Below, one piece after another: positions 982 through 19,301 of a stretch of 39,238 bases of DNA. The notes under the pieces are model-generated. The model had not been told where the DNA came from. It worked only from the letters and a program-made list of their open reading frames with translations, and made no database searches. Each line of letters starts with the position of its first letter. Position 1 is the first letter of the stretch. Source of the stretch: a virus (Duplodnaviria; Heunggongvirae; Uroviricota; Caudoviricetes); IMG/VR virus record IMGVR_UViG_2728369393_000005, one strand, 5' to 3'. A program made the position numbers and the translations under genes.

Positions 982-1027
982 AAATTCAATCACTTACACA
1001 TCATTAAGTCAGTGACAAAAATCACAC

Positions 1028-1063
1028 TTGGAATTACTTGGAATATTTTCTTGGAATATTTTC
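1028..1063. repeat. Direct repeats TTGGAAT(TAC) / TTGGAATATTTTC x2 overlapping the integrase stop codon; possible arm-type integrase binding sites
   Basis: cttggaattac-ttggaatattttc-ttggaatattttc read directly at 1027..1063, adjacent to the tRNA att region. Confidence 0.35.
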
Positions 1064-2059
1064 AGGTAACGGGACATCAAGTGTTGGTGAAACTTTAACC
1101 TTCCTGTCATAGATTAGCACTTGCCCCTCGGTTTTGTGACCAGAGAAAAGTTGCTTATCCCGGCTGCTTCCTTCATAGTCTGAAATTCCTTTCGCCTTCA
1201 GATCATGAAAGGTGAAGTCGGTTAAAATACCTGAAATTTTGCCTGCGCGATTTCTTGCTTCTACCCACATTTCGTTAAAGCCTTTGTACATATATCGGTT
1301 GCCATATTGATTGCTGATTACATAGACGGATGCTGGTAACTGTTTTGCTTTTTCGATCGCCGCCTGTAATCGTGGACTCCATGCTTTTATCTGTTTTTTC
1401 CCTGTTTTCCCTTGCTGGATAAAGATCCCGTCGTTTCCAATCTGCTCCCATTTCAGTGATAACACATCGGAAACCCTCGCTGCACACAGATAGGCAATTT
1501 CCATTGCGATAAAAACAGGAAGAGGTGCAACGCTTAATACTGCCTGGTATTCTTTGTCGGTTACATATCGTTCGCGGTTTTTGGCCTTGAATTTACTTAC
1601 ACCTGCACATGGGTTACCCTTCACGTAACCTCGCTCATACCCCCAACTGTAAACGCGGGACATACTGCTTTTTTCATGGTTGGCTTGCGTTTTACTCTGC
1701 TCCCCTCTTTTGTCCATGTATCGACGGATGTGTTCTGGTTTTATGGCATCCGCTGGTACCTTACCGAATACGGCAAGCAACTTTTTTTGATGTTGCAGAT
1801 AATCTTTTTGTGTTCTTGGACTAAGGTCACTGTAATAGGCGCTGGCGAGGAATTTTTCCCACAAGCGACCGAATGTCATTGCACGATCGTGATTATTTAC
1901 AGTTTCCTCATACTTTTTCCATAAAGCAGCTAAACCATCCTTGATGGCGGTTAGTGTTACAGATTCTCTGGATGTTGGTTTCCATACATAACTATATTTA
2001 TTTGGGTATACATTTGGAGGTAATTTTTCGTGTTCAGGATTTTTCCTTCGTCTTCCCAT
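1034..2059 (-). CDS. int: Tyrosine-type phage integrase (341 aa)
   Basis: ORF 1034..2059; C-terminal region carries recombinase-like HDLK ... GHK ... LIYDRK motifs; position and orientation next to a tRNA gene. Confidence 0.9.
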   Translation of the reverse strand: MGRRRKNPEHEKLPPNVYPNKYSYVWKPTSRESVTLTAIKDGLAALWKKYEETVNNHDRAMTFGRLWEKFLASAYYSDLSPRTQKDYLQHQKKLLAVFGKVPADAIKPEHIRRYMDKRGEQSKTQANHEKSSMSRVYSWGYERGYVKGNPCAGVSKFKAKNRERYVTDKEYQAVLSVAPLPVFIAMEIAYLCAARVSDVLSLKWEQIGNDGIFIQQGKTGKKQIKAWSPRLQAAIEKAKQLPASVYVISNQYGNRYMYKGFNEMWVEARNRAGKISGILTDFTFHDLKAKGISDYEGSSRDKQLFSGHKTEGQVLIYDRKVKVSPTLDVPLPENIPRKYSK

Positions 2060-2320: not shown

Positions 2321-3238
2321 TTAAAAATCAGCCTGACTCGGGATCAGTTTTTGCCAGATAGCTGAAACGTATTTTGCCTGGTAACGAGCGTCATCAAGTG
2401 CATTATGGTGCTCACCTTCGAATGGGATAGCAGTTCTGGCATCGAAGTCTATGGCTTTCCCCAGCTCAACGATTGTGCGTACATCGCGATCGTTGCTGTA
2501 GCGCCACGGGCAGGGGATACCCTGTCGTTCGTATGAACGGCGTAAAATCACGTTGTCGAAGTTGGCCCCATTACCCCAGACCTGAACAAAAAATTCACCG
2601 GAGTTTTCGTCGATAAATTCCCGCAATTGCAGTAGTGCATCATCTAACGGGATTTCATCGGTCATAATGGCAGACTGCGCTTCACGTGATTGCTTCAGCC
2701 ACCATTTAATGACGTCACGATCAATGACTCCGCCAGCAGTATCCAGATCGATGGTCTTGCTAAATTCTGGTCCCATATCTCCGGTTTGCGGATCGAAAAA
2801 TATTGCGCCTATTGAGATAATCGGGGCATCGGGATTTTTTCCCATGGTTTCAAGGTCGATCATCAGATGAATCCCCGCTCTGCTGGTGGATGTGAGATTA
2901 TGATGACTGTTCGCCTTAATTAAGGGATCTGACGCCTCGCCAGTTTCACTATCGCTGGCATGATGCTGATTGCCGCCAGTGTTCTCCTTGTGCTGATGTG
3001 CAGTACCTTCCATTTCCTCCGGATCATTTTCCTGAACTTCAGGCTGATTCTCTTCATCGAATATTTCCTGGTATGTTGTGTCACCCATCACCGCGCCACA
3101 ATCAGGGCAGTTGCCGCCACCGCTCTGACCGCAGGCGGTGCAGACTTTTTCCGGTTCCTGTTGCTGGCTCGCTTGCAATATCTTTCCCGATTTCTCGCAG
3201 CACAGAATGCAATGTATGAGCTGCTGTTTTCTGTACAT
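2321..3238 (-). CDS. DEDDh (DnaQ-like) 3'-5' exonuclease with N-terminal Cys4 zinc-ribbon and acidic linker
   Basis: Motifs MIDLETMG, WGNGANFDNVIL and HNALDDARY fit Exo I/II/III of DEDDh exonucleases; N-terminus has CxxCC ... CTACG ... CPDCG cysteines followed by an acidic low-complexity stretch. Confidence 0.7.
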   Translation of the reverse strand: MYRKQQLIHCILCCEKSGKILQASQQQEPEKVCTACGQSGGGNCPDCGAVMGDTTYQEIFDEENQPEVQENDPEEMEGTAHQHKENTGGNQHHASDSETGEASDPLIKANSHHNLTSTSRAGIHLMIDLETMGKNPDAPIISIGAIFFDPQTGDMGPEFSKTIDLDTAGGVIDRDVIKWWLKQSREAQSAIMTDEIPLDDALLQLREFIDENSGEFFVQVWGNGANFDNVILRRSYERQGIPCPWRYSNDRDVRTIVELGKAIDFDARTAIPFEGEHHNALDDARYQAKYVSAIWQKLIPSQADF

Positions 3239-6364: not shown

Positions 6365-6639
6365 ATGGAGACTGTTTTTGACGCACTGAAAGCAATGGGA
6401 AAAGCCACATCCATAGAACTTGCTGCGCGCGTGAAGAAGTGCTGAACGAACTATGGGAACTGAAAAAGGCTGGTTTTGTTGATAAAAGCGCGTACACCTG
6501 GCGTGTGGCTGATAACAACGTTCAGCAGGAACAGCCAGCGCAGGCAGAACTGCCGGAAGAAACCACCACAATGAGTGAAGTTATGCAGCGCATACTGGCA
6601 TTTTATCAGGGAAATGTTCGATATTTTAGACGTTACTAG
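6365..6639 (+). pseudogene. Small winged-helix-like protein split by a frameshift near 6431..6445
   Basis: ATG 6365 frame ([26 protein letters not shown]-stop) switches to the ORF 6439..6639 frame ([26 protein letters not shown]); the two halves read as one protein with a single-base indel. Confidence 0.4.
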
Positions 6640-7082
6640 ATTAAAGAGCATTAGTTCAGATGTGAATTGACATTGTGTGGCACAGGGTTGGGCTAGCGTG
6701 GGGGTTTGCTTTGTGTAAGAAACGGATGCTCTGCAAATTACTACTAATGCTTAATGTTAGTCTGATCTGCTCCCCGATGATTAATTAATACACCGCTATG
6801 TTAGTAATGTCTGTAGATCGCTGTGTGTTGCATCCATCGGTTGACCCCACAGTCCAAACCAGACTGTCAGCTTTGATTCGATTCTATCTACTCAACCTGT
6901 CAGGTAATGTCTGAGCTAATACACAGAGTACGGCTATCGCGAACTTTAAGCTAGGTATCTGATACGCACCGTTCACTTGGTTGTACTTCTTGCACTGACT
7001 AGCTATCGTGCGCAGTTATTTATAGGTAATCTCCAGTGTATAATTTTCCAACTTATGGGAGATTGTAAAACAGGAGGAATAT

Positions 7083-7925
7083 ATGAGGAAAAAATCGTTT
7101 GGACGTTGCCCGTTTGATTTCGACGAAGATGTAAAAAAAATAGCCGCGATAAATAAATATATCCATGCGAAATTTGAGAGGCATAAAAATAAAATAGATA
7201 ACCTAAAGGGGGTGGAACAAAAATTGATGGTTTTACATTACTTTAATGTACTGAATGAACTTAGTAATCAGGCTATATTTTCTTTGAGTACCGGAGCCTT
7301 TTCAGCATCGGAAGTATTAACTAGAGTTATAATGGAACAGGCTGCCAATCAATTTTATATAGCAATTGATGATGGAAAAAATGCACAAGCATTACTCAAG
7401 GGTAGTAAGAAATTAGTTCATAGTAATGGGAAACGGTGGCTGGAGTGTTTAAAATCCAAAGAAATGACTAATCCAGCAGCAGATGAAAGGATTCGTATCG
7501 GAAAAGAGCTAACTGATATGTTTAATAGATTGTGGCCAAATACACCTGAATATCCTGGAACCAAAAAGCTTTTCGAAGTAATTGGCTGGGAAACACACTA
7601 TCATGCCTATTACGTCCCTCTTTGTGATTCAATACATACATTCTCTGATGATATGGCAAATATAGTATCTCTATATAATGCAATCCAAAGCGATAAAACT
7701 ACTGCTATCGAACTCACTCTTGCAGTTAAACAAGAAAATAAACGGCTGGCAATTTATAATGTCGTAATTGCTATTGGCCTGCGGTGTGAGGCCTTAGTAA
7801 ATGTATTTAACTCTTTAGGTTATCGAGATATTATAACTGAAATGGCGCCAACAATAGATGCAGTCAACCAGATTATAATTCGATATGATGATTTCGAACA
7901 TTCCAGAATTTTTTATTGTCAATAA
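7083..7925 (+). CDS. Hypothetical 280-aa protein with its own promoter and strong RBS; function unknown
   Basis: AGGAGG at 7071..7076 before ATG 7083; TATAAT at 7043..7048; long AT-rich ORF; C-terminal RYDDFEH fits a loose Rx4-6H pattern, speculative. Confidence 0.6.
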   Translation: MRKKSFGRCPFDFDEDVKKIAAINKYIHAKFERHKNKIDNLKGVEQKLMVLHYFNVLNELSNQAIFSLSTGAFSASEVLTRVIMEQAANQFYIAIDDGKNAQALLKGSKKLVHSNGKRWLECLKSKEMTNPAADERIRIGKELTDMFNRLWPNTPEYPGTKKLFEVIGWETHYHAYYVPLCDSIHTFSDDMANIVSLYNAIQSDKTTAIELTLAVKQENKRLAIYNVVIAIGLRCEALVNVFNSLGYRDIITEMAPTIDAVNQIIIRYDDFEHSRIFYCQ

Positions 7926-7999
7926 TTAATTGGCAGAATTCGTACATGCACAACAACTAGTTATAGTTGACCTATTTCGCTCTTGAGAGACAACCATAC

Positions 8000-8551
8000 T
8001 CAAATCTTCCACATTGCAGGAGATTTGAGTATGAATACGTCACCGAGGAACAAAGACAGTATCATAGGCCCAAAAAGACCACTTCAGATATCTCATATCT
8101 GGGGGCTCCAAATCCGGCTTGAACTGGAAGGTAAAACGCGTGATTTAGCTCGGTTTCAAGCAGAGCTACGGTGCTGCAACTGAAAAACTGGCAGTCCTAT
8201 CCAATTTGAGATAACCAAAGGGACAAGAGAAGCTGTTTCTGCATTGATAAAGCTTGGCAATTTACGCAGTAAAGACTACTTGTTCCGATCTCGGGTCGGT
8301 ACTAACCAACACATATCAATCCTGCAATATAACCGAATCTTTCATAGGAGGGAGAAAAGCTTGGTCTCGAAGATTCGCTTTACAGCACACATTCCATGAG
8401 AAGAACAAAACCTTGCCTTGTCTGCAAGAAAACTAAGAATCTCCGGGTGATCCAACTTCCGTTGGGCCATAAGAAAACGGAAAGCACAGTTCGTTATCTG
8501 GGTATAGAAGTTGATGATGCATTAGAGATCTCTGAATCGATCGAAGTCTAA
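8000..8551 (+). pseudogene. Decayed tyrosine recombinase gene (fragments in three frames)
   Basis: Fragments KDYLFRSRVGTNQHIS, ALQHTFHEK and LRVIQLPLGHKKTESTVRYLGIEV-stop (ends 8551) resemble recombinase box II and the C-terminal LGH-x8-Y catalytic tyrosine region, but lie in different frames. Confidence 0.45.
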
Positions 8552-8963
8552 AGCTGTCAGGGCTGCAGCAGCAGCCCTGTGCCAAGAGCGTACCAATATA
8601 TGTCTCAAAAAATTGGGCACAGGTCAATATCAATACCAACAACTCTGATTGTGCTCATGTGATTTACTCCTGTAGAAAACGCAGACAGTAAAAATATTTC
8701 ACTGGCTGCTTCAGACAGGGCGTCCATCATATCATTACATAACAATAGCGGGGCACGATATCTAGACATGCAGCAACGATGGACATAGAATGAGTACAAT
8801 CAAAAGCATGTTTAACTACTTTAATTTAAAAATCTTAGAATCTTAGGTGTAGAGTTCAATACTTAGTTACATACCCTTTTGAAAGCATCACAAATCATAA
8901 CTATGAGCCTGTTAAAGGCATAGGTATTCTTAATTAAGAGCATTTTAATGAGAGAAAAATAAA

Positions 8964-10337
8964 ATGAAAAGACTATATTATACCCATCATGATAGTCGAA
9001 CCTTAAAACTTGCTATAGAAGGTGATGTTTCTGATAATGCGAATATTTTTACAGTAATTGTAGGTAAAAATGGCGTTGGAAAAAGCAGATTGTTATCTCA
9101 GATTGCTAAAGACTGTATTCAAGATGTTCATTTCTTGAAAACTTTTAATCCATTATTTGACAGAGAAATAACACCAAAGTTAATTGCCGTATCTACCAGC
9201 CCATTCGATAAATTCCCTCCAGGGCGTAGGTCATTAAATCACCAAAGGAAAGAAAATAATTATCGCTATGTGGGTATGCGTGGAGAAGGCCCCTTCGGCG
9301 TATCAAATGCCGTATCCCTTTTATCTTCAGCAGCGAGAGGTTGGCTAGAGAAACTTGCTTATTCAGAAAATCCTGCAAATTTACTCGATGTTTTTCATTC
9401 TATTGATTTTGAGCCCCATATAGAGTTTGTATTTAAACCAACTTACAACGGACCGGACACTCCTGACTATAACTTCATTGGTGTATATTCAGATGAGATA
9501 TTAACGGAAGTTAAGGAGTTATATTTAAAATACAATATAAAAATTGACAGGAAGAATATTGAGAGTCTCTTAAAGTTAAACTCCGAATCACGTCATGATA
9601 TTTACGAAGCACTGGTTGAAATTAATCGATTTGAACCTGAACGTAGGGCTGTAACCTTGTCAGTCGATTTTACCAATGGTGAAACATTGGTTGGCTCGAC
9701 TTATGCGAATAATTATTTTTCTAGATCAATTCTTAAACTTATGAACGCTGGCTTCATGAGATTGATGGATATGCGACTCATAAAAAAAAGCTATGGTCCC
9801 ATGTCACTTAAACGTGCGAGCTCGGGAGAACAATGTTTATTAGTGATGTTGCTTGGAATTGCAGGGCATATAACTGATGGTTCTATAATACTAATTGATG
9901 AACCGGAAATAAGCTTGCATCCTCGATGGCAGGAAGAGTTTATCATTATGTTAACAAAAGCATTTTTAACTTACTCAGGTTGTCAATTCATAATTGCAAC
10001 TCATTCACCACAAATAATATCCAATTTGCCGAATAAAGGTTGTTATATAACATCTTTGTCGAAAAGTTATCTTTATAAAGCAAAATACTTTAGCAACCGG
10101 TCTGCAGACTATCAACTTGCGGAACTATTTGATGCCCCTGGCATTATGAATGAATACATTGCCAGATTAGCTTTCAATTTACTTTCAAAAGTTAAGACTG
10201 CTAAGTTAGTAACAGATGATAATTGGCGTGAATTAAAACAACTCCAGCTTCTCCTTGAAAACGTTAATAGTAATGACCCTATTAATGAACTCGTAAATTC
10301 CGTATCTCAGGTGTGTGAAATTTATGCCAAAAATTAA
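8964..10337 (+). CDS. ABC-type (AAA_21/SMC-like) ATPase, 457 aa; PtuA-like candidate
   Basis: Walker A VGKNGVGKSRLL, signature-like SSGEQ, Walker B IILIDEPEISLHP, H-loop IIATHSP; stop overlaps the start of the downstream HNH gene. Confidence 0.75.
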   Translation: MKRLYYTHHDSRTLKLAIEGDVSDNANIFTVIVGKNGVGKSRLLSQIAKDCIQDVHFLKTFNPLFDREITPKLIAVSTSPFDKFPPGRRSLNHQRKENNYRYVGMRGEGPFGVSNAVSLLSSAARGWLEKLAYSENPANLLDVFHSIDFEPHIEFVFKPTYNGPDTPDYNFIGVYSDEILTEVKELYLKYNIKIDRKNIESLLKLNSESRHDIYEALVEINRFEPERRAVTLSVDFTNGETLVGSTYANNYFSRSILKLMNAGFMRLMDMRLIKKSYGPMSLKRASSGEQCLLVMLLGIAGHITDGSIILIDEPEISLHPRWQEEFIIMLTKAFLTYSGCQFIIATHSPQIISNLPNKGCYITSLSKSYLYKAKYFSNRSADYQLAELFDAPGIMNEYIARLAFNLLSKVKTAKLVTDDNWRELKQLQLLLENVNSNDPINELVNSVSQVCEIYAKN

Positions 10338-10959
10338 AAATCCAATTAGATTCAGCGCAGAGTCATTAGATATTATTGAGAAAAAATTGTCTTCTCCAGA
10401 TTTTAAGCATACCAACTGGGGAGATGATGATTTGCAAGTTCTCCGTGCAGAAATTAGAAATCATTACAGAGAAGAACAAAAGCTAGAATGTGTATATTGT
10501 CATGAGCCTATTGGGGTAAGAGCTGCACAAGCTGCTCCTATAGAGCATATTGTGCCAAAATCTCAATATCTATGTTTTATTTTTGAACCTAAGAATCTAT
10601 GTGTAGTATGTCCTGACTGCAATGAATTCAAAGGTAAAAATGAAGTGTTATTTGAACCCGTAATAAATGGGGGGCGGCGCAAAAACTATCCAACTGCATC
10701 TGCATCATTTCGCATCGTTCATCCACATATAGATGATTATGAGATGCATATTATAAAAGCAAATCGTGTTTATGTGGACAAAACACCTAAAGGGCACTAT
10801 ACCATTGGAATATGTAAACTAAATAGATTTTTTCATTATTTTGGGATGTGTGATGAATTTGTTAATGATGCAAAAATTGCTGAGGCAAATGAAAATTTTT
10901 TCAAAAAAGGTAGTATTACTACTAATGAATTATTGGATGATGACATTCATTTGATTTAA
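10324..10959 (+). CDS. HNH endonuclease, about 212 aa; PtuB-like candidate
   Basis: CVYCHEP ... EHIVPKS ... CPDCNEFKG gives the CxxC-H ... H ... CxxC HNH zinc-finger pattern; ATG 10324 overlaps the ATPase 3' end by 14 nt (GTG 10315 by 23 nt). Confidence 0.75.
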   Translation: MPKIKNPIRFSAESLDIIEKKLSSPDFKHTNWGDDDLQVLRAEIRNHYREEQKLECVYCHEPIGVRAAQAAPIEHIVPKSQYLCFIFEPKNLCVVCPDCNEFKGKNEVLFEPVINGGRRKNYPTASASFRIVHPHIDDYEMHIIKANRVYVDKTPKGHYTIGICKLNRFFHYFGMCDEFVNDAKIAEANENFFKKGSITTNELLDDDIHLI

Positions 10960-11272
10960 CTATGAATTATTATATTGTAAAGTAATCAGGTAAGATATGT
11001 TAGACAGTGAGACTATTGCCTTACAGAATTCATTATTCTTATGGATCGCCTTTCTGACTGATTTCATATTGGCGGGGTAACGGGAGTTAAGTAGAATGGC
11101 TGCGGGTGCTTGAGGCTATCTGTCTCAGGCATGAACACCAAAGGCAGATAGAGAAAAGCCCCAGTTAACATTACGCGTCCTGCAAGACGCTTAACATTAA
11201 TCTGAGGCCAATTTCATGCTAGACACATGTAGGTTAGCCTCTTACGTGCCGGAAGGCAAGGAGAAGCAGGCT

Positions 11273-11428
11273 ATGAAGCAGCAAAAGGCGATGTTAATCG
11301 CCCTGATCGTCATCTGTTTAACCGTCATAGTGACGACACTGGTAACGAGGAAAGACCTCTGCGAGGTACGAATCCGAACCGGCCAGACGGAGGTCGCTGT
11401 CTTCACAGCTTACGAACCTGAGGAGTAA
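11273..11428 (+). CDS. hokD: Hok/Gef-family type I toxin (51 aa)
   Basis: MKQQKAMLIALIVICLTVIVTTLVTRKDLCEVRIRTGQTEVAVFTAYEPEE matches Hok-family (HokD/RelF-like) sequence from memory; hairpin and intrinsic terminator follow. Confidence 0.65.
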   Translation: MKQQKAMLIALIVICLTVIVTTLVTRKDLCEVRIRTGQTEVAVFTAYEPEE

Positions 11429-11498
11429 GAGACCCGGCGAGGGAGAAATCCCTCGCCACCTCTGATGTGGCAGGCATCCTCAACGCACCCGCACTTAA

Positions 11499-11517
11499 CC
11501 CGCTTCGGCGGGTTTTT
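11499..11517 (+). terminator. Intrinsic terminator downstream of hok (CCCGC-TTCG-GCGGG + T-run)
   Basis: Stem-loop followed by TTTTTGTT read directly. Confidence 0.4.
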
Positions 11518-11785
11518 GTTTTTATTTTCAACGCGTTTGAAGTTCTGGACGGCGCCGGAATAGAATCAAAAATACTTAAGTAGCGCGCAGGGATAAGAGG
11601 GATGGTCCCTTAAAGGGGAGAGCTAATTATCCGGAAGGATTCTGATGATGAACATCGAAGAACTGCGTAAAATTTTTTGTGAAGATGGCCTCTATGCTGT
11701 GTGCGTTGAAAATGGAAATCTTGTTAGTCATTACCGCATTATGTGTTTGCGAAAGGTAAGCGTCAACGGAGCACCGTATTGACGC

Positions 11786-13401
11786 TTATTTATTGGTGAG
11801 TACTACGTTCCATGGCAGGAGTTCATCAACTCGGTTGGAAGGCCATTCCGGCAGTACGCTCAGGATATGGCGCAGATACGCTTCCGGATCGATACCGTTC
11901 AGACGGCAGGTGCCGATCAGCCCGTACAACAGTGCTCCACGCTCGCCGCCGTGATCGCTGCCAAAGAACATAAACTTTTTCTTTCCGAGACAGACTGCAC
12001 GAAGCGCTCTTTCCGCAGCATTATTATCCGCCTCCGCCAGACCGTCATCACTGTAATAACAGAGGGCATCCCACTGATTCAGTACATAGCTGAACGCTTC
12101 GCCCAGTCTGGATTTTTTCGACAGCGTACCATTCTTCTCCACCATCCATTCATGCAGCGACGTCAGTAACACTTTGCTTCGCTGCTGCCTGACGGCAAGA
12201 CGCTCTGACTCCGGTAATCCCCGTATTTCATCCTCGATGGCGTACAGTTCACTGATTCGCTTCAGGGCTTCTTCTGCCGTCGCACTTTTGCTGCTGATGT
12301 ATACATCGTGGATTTTTCGCCGGGCATGGGCCCAGCACGCAACTTCTGTCAGTGCACCACCTTCACGTTCTGCACTGAACAACCTGTCGTAACCTGTGAA
12401 CGCATCCGCCTGCAGGATACCCCGGAAGGGGCGGAGGTGTTGCTCCGGGTGTTTCCCCTGCCGGTTCGGCGAGTACGCGAACCAGACCGCTGGAGGAGAT
12501 GACGAACCCACATTGCGATCATCCCGGACATACGTCCAGATACGCCCTGTTTTCGCCTTTTTCTGACCCGGTGCCAGTACCTTTACCGGTGTGTCATCAG
12601 TGTGAACCTTGCGGGTGTTCATTACATAACGGTACAGGGCATCATTCACCGGTGTCATTAACTGGCAGCACGCGTCAACCCAGTTGGAGAGTAAGGCCCG
12701 GCTCAGTTCGACACCCTGGCGGGCAAAGATTTCACTCTGACGATACAGTGGCAGATGTTCGCAGTATTTTCCCGTTAACACGCGGGCAAGTAATCCGGGG
12801 CCCCCGCGATACCACGCTCTATCGGGCGGGACGGCGCCGGTGCTTCAACAATACAGTCACATTTTGTACAGGCTTTTTTTACCCGTTCTGTGCGGATCAC
12901 TTTCAGGGCACTGCTCACCAGTTCCAGCTGTTCAGCGCTGACTTCCCCCAGATAATCCAGCTCACCGCCACACTCCGGGCAACAGCTTTCTTCTGGCTCC
13001 AGGCGGTGTATTTCTCGGGGAAGGTGTGCCGGTAACGGACGACGATGGCGCGACTGTCGCAACTGGCGGGGAACCTGAGGATCGTCTTCCCGCCCACTGT
13101 AACGATCGCTGTCCTGTTCACGTTGTTTCAGCAGAGCCTCAGCCAGTTCAACTTCACGACGCAGTTTTTCAGAACGGGTACCGAACAGCATCCGGCGCAG
13201 TTTTTCTATCTGAGCCCGCAGATGTTCTATTTCCCGTTCATCTTCTTCGATCTTTTCTTCGGCACGTGTCAGTGCAGAGCGCAGGAAGGCTTCCGTCTCT
13301 TCAACCAGACTCAGTTGCTGGTCTTTCTGACGGAGGGCTTCAGCCTGCTCAGAGAGCAATCTTTCCAGCTCTGCGATGCGAATGAGGTATTTCTGACTCA
13401 T
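11786..13401 (-). pseudogene. IS66 transposase TnpC, split by a frameshift at a G/C homopolymer (12797..12805)
   Basis: N-terminal fragment 12775..13401 (Cys-rich zinc-finger CCPECG ... CTKCDC) and C-terminal fragment 11786..12781 (GKYCEHLPLYRQ ...) together equal a full-length TnpC. Confidence 0.75.
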
Positions 13402-13431
13402 GACCGTTTTTATAATGCGGTCAGGAGTTTT

Positions 13432-13782
13432 TTACAACATTGTCAGTGAGTTACGGCTGGATGTTTTTGGCTGACGCCAGTCCAGCTTATCGAGGAGCAT
13501 TGCCAGTTGCGAGCGGGTAATGGATACCTTGCCGTCACGTACCGCAGGCCAGATAAACTGGCCTTCCTCCAGGCGTTTGGTGAACAGGCACAGACCATCA
13601 GCATCAGCCCAAAGAATTTTGACGGTGTCACCCCGTCGGCCACGGAAGATAAACAGGTGACCGGAGAAGGGATTATCATTCAGCACATGTTGTACCTGTT
13701 CTCCCAGTCCGTTGAAGGATTTACGCATATCGGTAACGCCGGCAACGAGCCAGATACGGGTACCTGATGGGAGTGAGATCAT
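13432..13782 (-). CDS. IS66 family TnpB (Orf2)
   Basis: 116-aa ORF (MISLPSGTRIWLVAGVTDMRKSFNGL ...) typical of IS66 Orf2, upstream of tnpC. Confidence 0.8.
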   Translation of the reverse strand: MISLPSGTRIWLVAGVTDMRKSFNGLGEQVQHVLNDNPFSGHLFIFRGRRGDTVKILWADADGLCLFTKRLEEGQFIWPAVRDGKVSITRSQLAMLLDKLDWRQPKTSSRNSLTML

Positions 13783-14204
13783 CTTCCCCTCCCGGTCAGT
13801 TCACGGATCAACACCGTGAGCAGCTCTGGCGATGGATTTTCCAGCGTCATGTTACCGTGACGGAATTCCACCTTGCAGGAACTGGCACTGACTCTGGTCT
13901 GAGTGGAAGTGGATAAAGACGGCGCAATGGCCGCCACAGGTTCTTTCTGCTCATCCGGCGTTATTTCTACAGGTAATAATTCAACGCCAGTGTCAGAAGA
14001 GGTCGTTACCGGAAGACGCCGCGAAACACGCCCTTCGTTCTGCCAGAGCCTGAGCCATTTGAAAATAACATTATCATTGACGCCATTTTCACGTGCAATC
14101 TGTGCAACACAAGCTCCAGGTTGTGATGCCAGTTCCACCATACGAAGTTTGAATTCATTCGAATAGTTTTTACGAGGTTCTTTTCGCCAGTCCTGTAATT
14201 CCAT
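13779..14204 (-). CDS. IS66 family TnpA (Orf1, HTH)
   Basis: 141-aa ORF overlapping tnpB by 4 nt; first gene of the IS66 operon. Confidence 0.75.
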   Translation of the reverse strand: MELQDWRKEPRKNYSNEFKLRMVELASQPGACVAQIARENGVNDNVIFKWLRLWQNEGRVSRRLPVTTSSDTGVELLPVEITPDEQKEPVAAIAPSLSTSTQTRVSASSCKVEFRHGNMTLENPSPELLTVLIRELTGRGR

Positions 14205-16227: not shown

Positions 16228-16449
16228 ATGGCAAAAATCCGATATCTGCAGGGTACACATGATGCCCGGCCCGGGGATATCCGGGATGTCGCACAGCCGT
16301 GTGCGGAGGTGCTGGTTCGCCTGGGAAAGGCGGAGTACATCACGGTGCGACGTCCGGCAGGTCAGAAAAAGAAACGTGATGCGGAGCATGGCGAATGTGG
16401 AACCTTTTACGGCGAACCCGAAAAAACCAGAAATCAGGACGTGACGTAA
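16228..16449 (+). CDS. Hypothetical small protein (73 aa), doubtful
   Basis: ORF in the gap between capsid and portal genes; overlaps the portal start region; no motif. Confidence 0.25.
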   Translation: MAKIRYLQGTHDARPGDIRDVAQPCAEVLVRLGKAEYITVRRPAGQKKKRDAEHGECGTFYGEPEKTRNQDVT

Positions 16450-17758
16450 GAGAGGCGGGCTGGACCAGCCTGTTTCAGGCGGTGGCTGAGCCCTTTGCCG
16501 GCGCCTGGCAGCAGGGTGTGAAAGCCGATCCGGAAAGTGTCCTCTCCTTTCATGCGGTGTTTTCTTGCATTTCGCTGATATCCCAGGATATCGCCAAAAT
16601 GCGGCTGCGCCTGATGCAGACGGATACACAGGGGATCCGCCGTGAAAAACGGCAGGGGGATATTGCCCGTCTCTGTCGTCGTCTCAATGCACAGCAGAAT
16701 CGTATCCAGTTTTTTGAACTGTGGCTGAACGCCAAACTGCGTCACGGCAATACGGTGGTGCTGAAAATCCGTAACTCCCGGGGCAGATCAAAGAACTGCG
16801 TATTCTGGACTGGAGCCGGGTTGAACCTCTGGTGGCGGATGACGGCGAGGTGTTCTATCGCATCACGCCGGACCGGAACTGCGGGATCACGGAGGCGGTG
16901 ACGGTGCCTGCCCGGGAAGTGATCCACGACCGGTTTAACTGTTTTTTTCATCCGCTTGTGGGGCTGCCGCCGGTGTATGCCGCCGGGCTGGCGGCCACGC
17001 AGGGGCATCATATTCAGGAAAATTCGACGTCTTTTTTCAGAAATGGCGGCAGGCCGTCCGGGGTGATTGAGATCCCCGGCAGTATTACGGAAGAAAATGC
17101 GAAAAAACTGAAGAGCAACTGGGACAGCGGGTATACCGGCGAAAATGCGGGGAAAACGGCCATTCTGAGCAACGGAGCAAAATACAACCCCACGACGTTT
17201 TCACCGGTGGATGCGCAGACGGTGGAACAACTGAAGATGACCGCTGAAATTGTCTGTTCGGTGTTCCGTGTCCCGGCCTACAAGATTGGCGTTGGCCAGC
17301 CACCTTCCAGTGACAACGTGGAGGCGCTGGAGCAGCAGTATTATTCCCAGTGCCTGCAGACGCTGATTGAGTCCATTGAACTGTTACTGGATGAGGCGCT
17401 GGAAACGGGGGAAAACGAGAGTACGGAGTTTGACGTCACCACGCTGCTGAGAATGGACAGCGAACGTCGCATGAAAACGCTGGGTGAATCGGTGAAAAAT
17501 ACGCTTCTCACGCCCAATGAGGCCCGTAAACGTGAGAACCTGCCGCCCCTTGCCGGCGGTGATGCACTGTATCTTCAGCAGCAGAACTACAGTCTGGAGG
17601 CGCTGTCCCGTCGTGATGCCCGTGAGGATCCGTTCGCGTCTTCCGGGAAAACGTCGTCAGGCACACGCCAGGAGGGCGCGTCTGACGGTAATAAGGCCAT
17701 AAGCGAAACAGAGCGTGATGCGGTGAAGGCGATGTTCAGGGGGATACTGCGAAAATGA
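16395..17758 (+). CDS. HK97-family portal protein, interrupted by a frameshift near 16775..16790 (CCCGGGG run)
   Basis: Fragments 16395..16901 and 16832..17758 join into one portal-like protein; GKTAILSNGAKY ... VDAQTVEQLKMTAEIVCSVFRVPAYKIG is a portal signature. Confidence 0.7.
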
Positions 17759-18978
17759 CAGAGCGTGAACTGTCCATTATCCGTGCGCTGGGTGAAGAAT
17801 TCTCCACGGTGCTGGCGGATTTACAGCGCACATTTGAGGGGAAGATGGCCTCGCAGGCACAAGCGTTTGAAGAGAAACTGACTTCCCTGTCGGCGGTATT
17901 ACAGAAGCATGTGACGGTGGATGAGGTGCGTCCGGTTCTGCAGGCGATGGTGGATGACGCTGTGGGGGCCATTCCGGTACCGCGTGATGGTCGTGATTAT
18001 GATCCGGATGTACTGCAGCAGGCGGTGAATGATGCGGTTGCGAATATTCCGGTACCGGCGGACGGCAAAAGTATTACCCCGATGATGTGCGTCCGATGCT
18101 TGAACAGATGGTGAAGGAGGCGGTAAGCCATATTCCTGTTCCGCGTGATGGTCGTGATTACGATCCGGAAGTACTGAAGCAGGCGGTGAATGATGCGGTT
18201 GCGAATATTCCGGTACCGGCGGACGGCAAAAGTATTACCCCCGATGATGTGCGTCCGATGCTTGAGCAGATGGTGAAAGAGGCGGTAAGCCATATTCCTG
18301 TTCCGCGTGATGGTCGTGATTACGATCCGGAAGTACTGCAGAAGGCGGTGAATGATGCGGTCGCGAATATTCCGGTACCGGCGGACGGCAAAAGTATTAC
18401 CCCCCGATGATGTGCGTCCGATGCTTGAACAGATGGTGAAAGAGGCGGTAAGCCATATTCCTGTTCCGCGTGATGGTCGTGACTATGATCCCGATGTTCT
18501 GCAGAAGGCTGTTCTGGAGGCGGTGAGAGCCCTGCCGGCTCCGCAGGACGGGCGTGATGCCACGGCACTGGAAATAATCCCCGCCATTGACGATCAAAAA
18601 TCCTTTCCCCGGGGCACGTATGCCACACACCAGGGCGGACTCTGGCGGGCGTATGAAAAAACGCACGGGATGCGGGGATGGGAATGCCTGGTTGACGGGG
18701 TGGCCGATATTGACGTCAGCATGACCGGCGAACGGTCGTTCACTGTGGTGGTCCGGCAGAGCAGTGGCCAGCGTACGGAAAAAACATTTTCCCTGCCGGT
18801 GATGCTCTACCGCGGTGTGTTCAGAGCCGGTGAAACCTACCACCCCGGTGATACGGTGACGTGGGGGGGCTCGCTGTGGCACTGCAACAGTATGACCGGT
18901 GATAAACCCGGAGAAGCTCATTCATCAGGCTGGACCCTGGCTGCCAAACGTGGACGGGATGCAGGAGGCGGAAAATGA
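17755..18978 (+). CDS. Head-module protein with tandem 54-aa repeats, broken by two frameshifts at C-runs
   Basis: Three ORF fragments (17755..18114, 18087..18410, 18352..18978) share the repeat VRPMLEQMVKEAVSHIPVPRDGRDYDPEVL ... ANIPVPADGKSITP; C-run is C4, C5, C6 in successive repeats. Confidence 0.55.
17920..18567 (+). repeat. Tandem coding repeats, unit about 162 bp, 3 full copies plus a divergent partial copy
   Basis: Units 17920..18080 (161 bp), 18081..18242 (162 bp), 18243..18405 (163 bp), then a degenerate copy; length differences are confined to a poly-C tract. Confidence 0.8.
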
Positions 18979-19301
18979 CGGCATTACTGACACTGGAAGA
19001 GATCAAGGCACATCTGCGTGTCGACCATGACGCGGATGATGACATGCTGATGGACAAGGTTCGTCAGGCTACCGCCGTGCTGCTGGCCTACATTCAGGGC
19101 AGCCGGGATAAGGTGATTCGTGAGGACGGTGAACTGATCCCGGGCGAGGCATTAACCCGGATGAAGGGGGCTGCCATGCGACTGACCGGGATGCTGTACC
19201 GGAATCCGGATCTTGCGGAGCGGGAAGAACTGATTCAGGGGGAGCTGCCGTTTTCTGTTTCCGTGCTGATTTACGATTTGCGTTGTCCGACGGTGTTATG
19301 A
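18975..19301 (+). CDS. Head-tail connector protein (gp6-like)
   Basis: 108 aa starting MTALLTLEEIKAHLRVDHDADDDMLMDKV, characteristic of the gp6 family; position after the portal. Confidence 0.65.
   Translation: MTALLTLEEIKAHLRVDHDADDDMLMDKVRQATAVLLAYIQGSRDKVIREDGELIPGEALTRMKGAAMRLTGMLYRNPDLAEREELIQGELPFSVSVLIYDLRCPTVL

What the first reader, a model, noticed from the sequence alone, without database searches (positions are those of the whole stretch)
8964..10959. Overlapping ABC-ATPase + HNH nuclease pair: candidate Septu-like anti-phage module inside the prophage
A 457-aa protein carries a full ABC/SMC-type ATPase motif set (Walker A GKNGVGKS, signature-like SSGEQ, Walker B ILIDEPEISLHP, H-loop ATHSP). 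It is translationally coupled to a 212-aa HNH zinc-finger nuclease (CxxCH ... EHIVPKS ... CPDCNEFKG), with a 14-23 nt overlap. This two-gene ATPase + HNH architecture is that of Septu (PtuA/PtuB) and of retron-associated ATPase-HNH effectors. The pair sits in an AT-rich islet in a prophage region that normally holds late regulatory genes. It could protect the lysogen against superinfecting phages. Family assignment is from motifs only.
Basis: partly seen in the sequence, partly recalled or inferred. Interest (0 to 1): 0.78.

Follow-up and report, generated by a model that had tools for sequence, protein, structure and literature searches.

The report
Septu anti-phage gene pair in prophage
Two overlapping genes in a decayed E. 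coli prophage encode a stand-alone Septu (PtuA ATPase plus PtuB HNH nuclease) anti-phage system, which standard defence-finding models recognise at full length, so it is a correct but ordinary finding.

Summary
PADLOC models place them full-length in PtuA (E=1.2e-165) and PtuB (E=1.1e-83). Predicted structures find solved PtuA and PtuB chains as their nearest neighbours. No reverse transcriptase, retron RNA or TOPRIM domain is present, so this is a stand-alone Septu, not a retron I-A, PARIS or OLD system.

The pair, with the same short overlap, recurs in Klebsiella, Pseudomonas, Vibrio and Lysobacter. There it lies beside integrases, phage tail genes or Gabija.

In the window it is a 2.2-kb cassette (8757-10972) with a conserved promoter-like site. 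The cassette lies in a 4.5-kb AT-rich islet (6571-11076, 36% GC against 52%). The islet sits between replication gene P and hokD of a defective, effector-carrying lambdoid prophage. Sister prophages carry other cargo at that site, such as the adhesin paa.

The cassette is rare: 19 of 5426 complete E. coli genomes, including EPEC E2348/69. It belongs to a subfamily that shares only ATPase motifs with the tested E. coli Septu systems, so its nucleic-acid target and trigger are inferred. It is a new member of a known kind and of low interest.

The parts
6571..11076 (.). AT-rich cargo islet in the prophage early-right region. It holds a DUF5677 plus decayed-recombinase module (6762-8515) and the Septu cassette. 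It is context, not part of the system.
   Evidence: Homology with sister prophages stops at 6570 and resumes at 11077-11092. GC is 0.363 against 0.520.
8757..10972 (+). Septu cassette: upstream promoter region, ptuA and ptuB. This is the unit that moves between genomes.
   Evidence: 85% DNA identity to Klebsiella variicola loci L013/L014 over exactly this span, with unrelated flanks. Present as a single copy at >=99.9% identity in 19 of 5426 complete E. coli genomes.
8763..8791 (+). Candidate sigma-70 promoter of ptuAB (TAGACA, 17-nt spacer, TAGAAT).
   Evidence: Consensus scan gives 10 of 12 matches, and the region as a whole is not enriched for such sites over shuffles. Both hexamers and the spacing are identical in K. 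variicola, at the very start of the shared cassette. Function is inferred.
8964..10337 (+). ptuA, a 457-aa ABC/SMC-type ATPase.
9063..9086 (+). Walker A GKNGVGKS (residues 34-41; K40).
   Evidence: invariant G34, N36, G37, G39, K40, S41.
9819..9833 (+). ABC signature SSGEQ (residues 286-290), with the canonical glutamine Q290 retained.
   Evidence: invariant in 47 homologues.
9888..9923 (+). Walker B and D-loop ILIDEPEISLHP (residues 309-320; D312, E313).
   Evidence: invariant.
9996..10010 (+). H-loop ATHSP (residues 345-349; H347).
   Evidence: invariant.
10324..10959 (+). ptuB, a 211-aa HNH nuclease with a Cys4 zinc site and a C-terminal helical domain.
   Evidence: PADLOC PDLC00325 PtuB E=1.1e-83, full length. 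Pfam HNH 23.9 bits against a 21.4 cut-off. AF2 model pLDDT 82.5. Best solved match is 8eea_G, E. coli Septu PtuB, TM 0.47/0.43 over 224 columns.
10324..10337 (+). 14-nt overlap of the ptuA stop and ptuB start (ATGCCAAAAATTAA); translational coupling is likely.
   Evidence: Sequence. The same arrangement, with 8-17 nt overlaps, is seen in Pseudomonas, Vibrio, Lysobacter and Klebsiella.
10489..10620 (+). HNH catalytic core: C56xxC59, H75, N91, C96xxC99, N100.
   Evidence: all invariant in 46 homologues.

Best explanation
This is a stand-alone Septu defence system (PADLOC names its best-matching models PtuA1/PtuB1), carried as a self-contained 2.2-kb cassette with its own promoter in the accessory region of a defective lambdoid prophage.

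Proposed mechanism, by analogy with solved and tested Septu and retron PtuAB systems: PtuA is an ABC-type ATPase that oligomerises. Its C-terminal three-helix extension clamps the C-terminal helices of the PtuB HNH nuclease and holds it inactive in uninfected cells. Infection by a phage, sensed by PtuA through a still unknown trigger, releases or licenses PtuB. PtuB then cuts nucleic acid and stops phage production at the cost of growth of the infected cell. [quoted passage not shown]

What is shown: the gene pair, the intact catalytic motifs, family membership by profile and by predicted fold, conservation of the pair across genera, its location in mobile and defence contexts, and the absence of an RT.

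What is inferred: the assembly mode, the nuclease target, the trigger, expression in the lysogen and any protection. This subfamily keeps the canonical signature glutamine (Q290), so PtuA may hydrolyse ATP; a paper read here reports that the solved E. coli Septu PtuA has leucine at that position and lacks ATPase activity.
For: Family models: PADLOC PtuA E=1.2e-165 and PtuB E=1.1e-83, both full length. The next families are far weaker and partial (AriA 78 bits, PDC-M01A 97 bits, against 550 bits for PtuA). Pfam gives AAA_21, AAA_15 and HNH above cut-off.

Conservation: catalytic residues are invariant in 46-47 homologues. The overlapping ATPase-plus-HNH pair recurs in P. aeruginosa (near integrases), Vibrio, Lysobacter (adjacent to an integrase and a Gabija-like OLD-TOPRIM plus UvrD pair) and K. 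variicola (next to phage tail genes).

Assembly hints: the predicted PtuA C-terminus has three long helices (392-456) and the PtuB C-terminus three helices (155-195). This fits the nine-helix PtuA-CTE/PtuB-CTD bundle described in PMC12819146.

No retron: no RT or retron RNA was found.

Function in relatives: Septu EcB88 needs Walker A/B and HNH residues and cleaves tRNA-Tyr on T6 infection (PMC13096335).
Against: No experiment exists for this subfamily.

Similarity to the tested E. coli Septu systems is weak. Against EcB88, PtuA aligns only over about 105 columns of ABC motifs and PtuB is not significant (the EcB88 sequences were machine-read from a figure). Against ATCC 25922 (8ee4/8ee7), PtuA gives E=3e-7 over about 50 residues and PtuB has no single-sequence hit.

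The promoter call is a consensus match in a region with no enrichment over shuffles. The 36% GC islet might be silenced in E. coli; this is my inference and was not tested.
Confidence: 0.87

Rival explanations
1. It is an orphaned effector module of a type I-A retron (Ec78/Eco7 or Ec83 type) whose reverse transcriptase and ncRNA lie elsewhere or were lost.
For: Retron I-A PtuA and PtuB are the top structural and profile neighbours. NCBIfam retron PtuA and PtuB models give weak hits.
Against: NCBIfam retron equivalogs score far below their cut-offs (65.8 against 500 bits; 30.5 against 150 bits). No RT gene is annotated in the stretch of the near-identical genome that covers the whole window. 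Rfam finds only sok and a tRNA in the window. PtuA is 457 aa and appears to lack the N-terminal extension of the ~550-aa retron PtuA proteins: profile position 27 aligns to Ec83 residue 85. PMC12819146 says that extension contacts the RT-ncRNA complex. Homologous pairs in four other genera also have no RT neighbour.
Confidence: 0.03
2. It is a PARIS-, OLD- or Gabija-type system, or the AbiEii-type toxin that the Pfam AAA_21 name suggests, rather than Septu.
For: The C-terminal ABC motifs of AriA are the best sequence hits among solved structures (E=1.6e-12 single sequence; 5.5e-17 with the profile). Pfam's description of AAA_21 mentions AbiEii. OLD nucleases appear among weaker hits.
Against: The AriA match covers only about 75 residues. 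PADLOC AriA models score at most 78 bits against 550 for PtuA. There is no TOPRIM or DUF4435 domain in either protein and no AriB- or GajB-like neighbour. The partner is an HNH protein that matches PtuB end to end.
Confidence: 0.03
3. It is a selfish or phage-housekeeping HNH endonuclease (homing endonuclease, or a packaging-associated HNH) next to an unrelated ATPase, with no defence role. A variant of this reading is a decaying, unexpressed remnant.
For: HNH genes are common in phages. PHROGs HNH families match weakly. The surrounding prophage is decaying: the integrase, portal and neighbouring recombinase are frameshifted and an IS66-family element has inserted. One of 19 genomes has a split PtuA.
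Against: Both genes are intact in 18 of 19 genomes while the recombinase beside them is a pseudogene. The ATPase-HNH pair with overlapping stop and start is conserved at 42-90% identity across genera and in non-phage islands. All catalytic residues are invariant. PtuB has PtuB-specific N- and C-terminal domains beyond the HNH core. The pair is not near the packaging genes.
Confidence: 0.07

Closest known systems
Septu, as catalogued in PADLOC (models named PtuA1|PtuA and PtuB1|PtuB)
   Same: Two co-oriented genes: an AAA_15/AAA_21 ABC-type ATPase followed by an HNH nuclease, with no third gene. PADLOC subfamily models PDLC00283 and PDLC00325 match at full length. The pair sits in mobile or defence contexts.
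   Different: Nothing at the level of architecture. This subfamily has no tested representative that I could find.
E. coli ATCC 25922 Septu (PDB 8EE4/8EE7/8EEA/8SUX; PtuA hexamer with PtuB)
   Different: Sequence similarity is limited to about 50 residues of ABC motifs in PtuA. PtuB has no single-sequence hit and the profile gives only E=0.009. The ABC signature here keeps glutamine (SSGEQ), whereas PMC12819146 reports leucine at that position and no ATPase activity for that PtuA. PtuB here has the classic CxxC...CxxC zinc site; a second CxxC is not evident in the machine-read alignment of the tested PtuBs.
E. coli Septu EcB88, probably the type called 'Septu I' by Wu et al. (tRNA-Tyr variable-loop cleavage; synergy with tmn)
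   Same: Same two-gene architecture. Walker A/B and HNH residues are needed for function. The PtuB catalytic His and Asn fall at the same numbers (H75, N91).
   Different: It is a different subfamily. hhalign aligns only 105 PtuA columns, and PtuB is not significantly similar (using machine-read sequences). The motifs differ: LIDEVDMHLHP against LIDEPEISLHP, with mutated residues K43/D316 against K40/D312 here. The target and phage range of the window's system are unknown.
Type I-A retron PtuAB (Ec78/Eco7, Ec83)
   Different: There is no RT, ncRNA or msDNA. PtuA is about 90 aa shorter and appears to lack the N-terminal extension; PMC12819146 describes that extension as contacting the RT-ncRNA complex. 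The NCBIfam retron equivalogs are not met.

Membership tests
Septu (stand-alone PtuAB) | PtuA: an ABC/SMC-type ATPase that matches a PtuA profile | tested here: met
   PADLOC PDLC00283 E=1.2e-165 over residues 2-455 of 457. Pfam AAA_21 74.3 bits and AAA_15 61.6 bits, both above cut-off. Walker A, signature, Walker B and H-loop are invariant.
Septu (stand-alone PtuAB) | PtuB: an HNH nuclease that matches a PtuB profile | tested here: met
   PADLOC PDLC00325 E=1.1e-83 over residues 7-212 of the 214-aa form. Pfam HNH 23.9 bits against a 21.4 cut-off. H75, N91, N100 and the Cys4 site are invariant.
Septu (stand-alone PtuAB) | ptuA and ptuB adjacent and co-oriented in one operon, and conserved as a pair | tested here: met
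   14-nt overlap. The same pair, with 8-17 nt overlaps, occurs in four other genera.
Septu (stand-alone PtuAB) | Folds of both proteins resemble solved PtuA and PtuB | tested here: met
Septu (stand-alone PtuAB) | PtuA oligomer holding PtuB (the hexameric assembly described for E. coli Septu) | not testable with these tools
   Only single-chain prediction is available. The predicted three-helix C-termini of both proteins are compatible with it.
Septu (stand-alone PtuAB) | Protects against phage and depends on the ATPase and HNH residues | not testable with these tools
   Shown for other E. coli Septu systems, not for this subfamily.
Type I-A retron (Ec78/Ec83) | Reverse transcriptase and msr/msd ncRNA next to ptuAB | tested here: not met
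   No RT is annotated in the stretch of the near-identical genome that covers the window. Rfam finds no retron RNA. NCBIfam retron PtuA and PtuB score far below their cut-offs.
PARIS (AriA/AriB) | ABC ATPase AriA paired with a TOPRIM/DUF4435 AriB | tested here: not met
   The partner is an HNH protein. AriA models match only partly, at 78 bits or less. No TOPRIM domain is found.
OLD family / Gabija GajA | ATPase fused to a TOPRIM nuclease | tested here: not met
   Pfam finds only AAA_21 and AAA_15 in the 457-aa protein. OLD hits are limited to the Walker B region.
HNH homing endonucleases | Free-standing HNH with DNA-binding modules, inserted in or beside a target gene, with no ATPase partner | tested here: not met
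   The protein matches PtuB over its whole length and is always paired with PtuA. PHROG HNH families match only the roughly 65-residue core.

The most novel reading that the evidence does not exclude
This is an uncharacterised Septu subfamily. Its features are a canonical signature glutamine that may permit ATP hydrolysis, a Cys4-zinc HNH, and spread mainly in Pseudomonas and other Gammaproteobacteria. It might use a different nuclease target or phage trigger from the tRNA-Tyr-cleaving E. coli Septu systems. It also marks the P-to-hokD interval of these lambdoid prophages as an exchangeable cargo site that holds either virulence genes (paa) or defence genes.
Probability: 0.3. Interest if true: 0.4.

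Novelty: new member of a known kind. Interest (0 to 1): 0.2.

Why it matters
The locus adds a correctly assigned defence system to a prophage found in attaching-effacing E. coli, including the prototype EPEC strain E2348/69. RefSeq labels the genes only 'AAA family ATPase' and 'HNH endonuclease'.

It could affect the phage susceptibility of these strains, which bears on phage therapy and phage typing.

It also gives a natural test case for whether a Septu subfamily that keeps the canonical ABC signature glutamine behaves like the ATPase-inactive solved Septu.

It does not change the understanding of Septu. Any PADLOC or DefenseFinder run would be expected to flag it.

Tried and rejected
Retron: I looked for an RT or ncRNA with Rfam on the whole window, RefSeq annotation and NCBIfam retron models, and found none.

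PARIS, OLD, Gabija: rejected, because there is no TOPRIM domain and the partner is an HNH protein.

Identity with a tested E. coli Septu: primer sequences and the machine-read alignment in the supplement of PMC13096335 show that EcB88, ATCC 25922 and Eco7 belong to other subfamilies. No accession for EcB88 was available. The Septu structure paper cited there (PMC12318543) is not held, so its findings are quoted second-hand from PMC12819146.

Sequenced phages: only a weak partial match to one Vibrio phage. Plasmids: only an 8.5-kb E. coli record that looks like an assembly fragment, and a distant Acinetobacter pair.

An empty site: I searched for a genome with the two flanks of the islet adjacent and found none. 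The interval is always filled with some cargo.

Literature: full-text search for 'Septu' with prophage terms returned mostly 'septum' papers, and the strain name E2348/69 could not be used as a search term. 'DUF5677' returned nothing informative.

The DUF5677 protein has no PADLOC hit and no tblastn hit in the phage collection.
Full report
OBSERVATION. The window has two + strand ORFs at the stated place: 8964-10337 (457 aa) and 10315-10959 (214 aa from a GTG; 211 aa from the ATG at 10324). RefSeq annotation of a 99.98%-identical genome uses the ATG. The exact 211-aa protein is on record on at least 1000 contigs, and homologues share the N-terminus MPxINxP. The overlap is therefore 14 nt (ATGCCAAAAATTAA).

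In PtuA they are GKNGVGKS (34-41), SSGEQ (286-290), ILIDEPEISLHP (309-320) and ATHSP (345-349). In PtuB they are CVYCH (56-60), EHIVPKS (74-80) and CPDCNEFKG (96-104). In alignments of 47 and 46 homologues at 42-90% identity, every catalytic residue is invariant: K40, S286-Q290, D312, E313 and H347 in PtuA; C56, C59, H75, N91, C96, C99 and N100 in PtuB. The region is AT-rich: 36.3% GC over 6900-11000 against 52.0% elsewhere.

FAMILY ASSIGNMENT. PADLOC-DB places the first protein in PtuA (PDLC00283, E=1.2e-165, residues 2-455 on profile 3-447 of 448). It places the second in PtuB (PDLC00325, E=1.1e-83, full length). Other defence families match only parts of the ATPase and far more weakly, for example AriA at 78 bits or less. 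Pfam gives AAA_21 and AAA_15 for PtuA and HNH for PtuB, all above the gathering scores. NCBIfam's retron-specific PtuA and PtuB equivalogs are hit only weakly, far below their cut-offs (65.8 against 500 bits; 30.5 against 150 bits).

AlphaFold2 models built from the family alignments are confident, with mean pLDDT 82.2 and 82.5.
- For PtuA, all 50 best Foldseek matches in the PDB are PtuA chains of retron I-A, Ec83 or E. coli Septu complexes (E 2e-9 to 2e-5).
- For PtuB, the best match is chain G of 8EEA, the E. coli Septu PtuB (probability 0.99, TM 0.47/0.43 over 224 columns). Retron PtuBs come next, then Cas9 HNH domains.
- Profile searches of PDB sequences agree.

The global scores are modest, so this is a distant subfamily, but the ranking is consistent.

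WHAT IT IS NOT. There is no reverse transcriptase in the annotated stretch that covers the window. Rfam finds only the sok antisense RNA and a tRNA. PtuA appears to lack the N-terminal extension of the ~550-aa retron PtuA proteins, since profile position 27 aligns to residue 85 of Ec83 PtuA; PMC12819146 describes that extension as contacting the RT-ncRNA complex. The locus is therefore not a type I-A retron. Neither protein has a TOPRIM domain and there is no AriB- or GajB-like neighbour, so it is not PARIS, OLD or Gabija. PtuB matches PtuB models beyond the HNH core and is always paired with PtuA, so it is not a homing endonuclease.

CONSERVATION OF THE PAIR. About 4000 PtuA homologues with E<=1e-5 were found, mostly in Gammaproteobacteria and especially Pseudomonas. 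PtuB homologues come from the same contigs in Dickeya, P. putida, Achromobacter and Rosenbergiella, judged by matching contig lengths. Direct inspection shows the same ATPase-plus-HNH pair with overlapping stop and start in four settings:
- P. aeruginosa (455 + 194 aa, 17-nt overlap, near integrases);
- Vibrio fluvialis (461 + 216 aa, near integrase fragments);
- Lysobacter (446 + 194 aa, directly after an integrase and directly before a Gabija-like OLD-TOPRIM plus UvrD pair);
- Klebsiella variicola (457 + 210 aa, next to phage tail genes).

The flanks differ each time, so the two genes form a self-contained module that travels in mobile elements and defence islands.

ANATOMY IN THE WINDOW. 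The window is 99.98% identical to the chromosome of E. coli CFSAN004176. It starts at mtfA and a tRNA-Ser gene, where a lambdoid prophage is integrated. The prophage is defective:
- the integrase is frameshifted, the exonuclease truncated and the portal gene frameshifted;
- an IS66-family element (ISEc23, about 11786-14204) lies between a truncated rem and the capsid gene, so the nin/Q, lysis and terminase regions are absent.

Its right end carries sodC, lom and type III effector genes (NleG family, EspW).

Homology with sister prophages stops at 6570, inside a truncated DUF1627 gene just after replication gene P. It resumes at 11077-11092, just before sok/hokD. The 4.5-kb islet between these points has two modules of separate origin.
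- Module 1 (6762-8515) encodes a DUF5677 protein and a short tyrosine recombinase that is a pseudogene here. It is 87-89% identical to a module that sits in a P2-like prophage of strain 317 between the tail-fibre assembly and tail-sheath genes.
- Module 2 (8757-10972) is the Septu cassette. It is 85% identical at DNA level to the K. variicola locus over exactly this span.

The shared span begins 207 nt upstream of ptuA. It opens with a promoter-like TAGACA-17 nt-TAGAAT (8763-8791) whose hexamers and spacing are identical in Klebsiella. The cassette thus appears to bring its own promoter; this is an inference, and the scan itself shows no enrichment over shuffled sequence.

THE SITE IS A CARGO SITE. 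In five sister prophages the P/DUF1627-to-hokD interval holds other things:
- an sce7726-family gene plus a 'beta protein' gene (strain 214-4);
- ea22-like, HNH and hypothetical genes (TUM2830);
- small ORFs and an IS3-family element (OkiPb01678).

No genome has the two flanks adjacent. In intact relatives such as the E2348/69 prophage, the genes downstream are hokD, rem, DUF968, rusA and a DUF1133 family gene, which I take to be Q-like (my reading). The islet therefore sits in the accessory region of the early-right operon, not among late regulators.

DISTRIBUTION. The cassette occurs once each in 19 of 5426 complete E. coli genomes at 99.9% identity or more, always within the same islet. Hosts include EPEC E2348/69 and isolates from humans, cattle, chickens, a panda, a dog, cucumber and seawater. 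PtuA is split in one of them. RefSeq calls the genes only 'AAA family ATPase' and 'HNH endonuclease'.

MECHANISM (inferred from relatives). Papers read here report the following.
- Septu EcB88 from E. coli protects against T-even and T5-like phages. [quoted passage not shown]
- The stand-alone E. coli Septu forms a PtuA hexamer carrying PtuB, nicks DNA in vitro and is inhibited by ATP. PtuB's C-terminal helices are clamped by the C-terminal extensions of a PtuA dimer in a nine-helix bundle (PMC12819146).
- An EcB88-type 'Septu I' synergises with tmn.

The models here show three long C-terminal helices in PtuA (392-456) and three in PtuB (155-195). The most conserved non-ATPase stretch of PtuA (376-404) directly precedes and enters this region. 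I therefore expect the same clamp-and-release logic: PtuA oligomers hold PtuB inactive, and infection licenses the nuclease. The target and the trigger for this subfamily are unknown.

DIFFERENCES FROM TESTED SYSTEMS. Compared with EcB88, ATCC 25922 and Eco7, this subfamily shares only the C-terminal ABC motifs in PtuA. It shares little beyond the CxxC...H core in PtuB. It keeps the canonical signature glutamine (SSGEQ, Q290 invariant), whereas the solved Septu PtuA is reported to carry leucine there and to lack ATPase activity. Its HNH has a full CxxC...CxxC zinc site. These are testable differences, not evidence of a new kind of system.

VERDICT. The locus is a stand-alone Septu system of an untested subfamily, riding as cargo in a decaying effector-carrying lambdoid prophage. 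It is a new member of a known kind that standard tools recognise, and its interest is low.

Noticed in passing
window 6762-8551 (DUF5677 gene 7083-7925; recombinase pseudogene about 8031-8551): A DUF5677 gene plus a short (about 194-aa when intact) tyrosine recombinase form a separate module. It is 87-89% identical to one in a P2-like prophage of E. coli strain 317, between the tail-fibre assembly and tail-sheath genes. From memory, that is the P2 Z/fun accessory position known as a defence hotspot. Here the recombinase is broken. The DUF5677 protein has no PADLOC hit and no known function; it might be an uncharacterised accessory or defence module.
   Followed up: partly
window 6571-11076, compared with loci L008, L009, L016, L017, L018: The interval between replication gene P/DUF1627 and hokD is a variable cargo site in related lambdoid prophages. 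Depending on the strain it holds the adhesin gene paa, an sce7726 plus 'beta protein' pair, ea22/HNH/hypothetical genes, or this Septu islet. No genome with an empty site was found.
   Followed up: partly
window 11104-11428: A complete hokD/sok type I toxin-antitoxin locus (Rfam sok 117 bits; 51-aa Hok-type ORF) lies directly downstream of the islet, followed by a terminator-like hairpin at 11497-11514.
   Followed up: partly
window about 11645-14204: An IS66-family element (ISEc23; tnpA, tnpB, transposase) abuts a truncated rem gene on one side and the major capsid gene on the other. The nin/Q, lysis and terminase regions are therefore missing. In the window the transposase reads as two ORFs (331 + 208 aa), whereas the near-identical RefSeq genome annotates one CDS, which suggests a 1-nt difference.
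   Followed up: partly
window 1009-2059, 2321-3238, about 16400-18980: There are further signs of prophage decay. The integrase next to the tRNA-Ser gene is frameshifted, the exonuclease gene is truncated and the portal gene is frameshifted. ptuA and ptuB remain intact.
   Followed up: no
window 17971-18509: A tandem repeat of 162 nt x 3.3 copies (95% matches; 54-aa units) lies inside the head-morphogenesis region.
   Followed up: no
window 27840-28367 and 34404-39238: Virulence-type cargo sits at the tail end of the prophage: sodC on the minus strand between tail genes, a lom-family gene, and an AT-rich block of type III effector genes (NleG family, DUF1076 proteins, EspW annotated as frameshifted, and a bfpT-regulated chaperone gene). 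This points to an attaching-effacing E. coli host.
   Followed up: no
locus L011 7408-10066 (Lysobacter): In Lysobacter the homologous PtuAB pair is immediately followed by a Gabija-like pair (OLD-type TOPRIM ATPase plus UvrD-like helicase) and preceded by an integrase, forming a compact defence islet.
   Followed up: no
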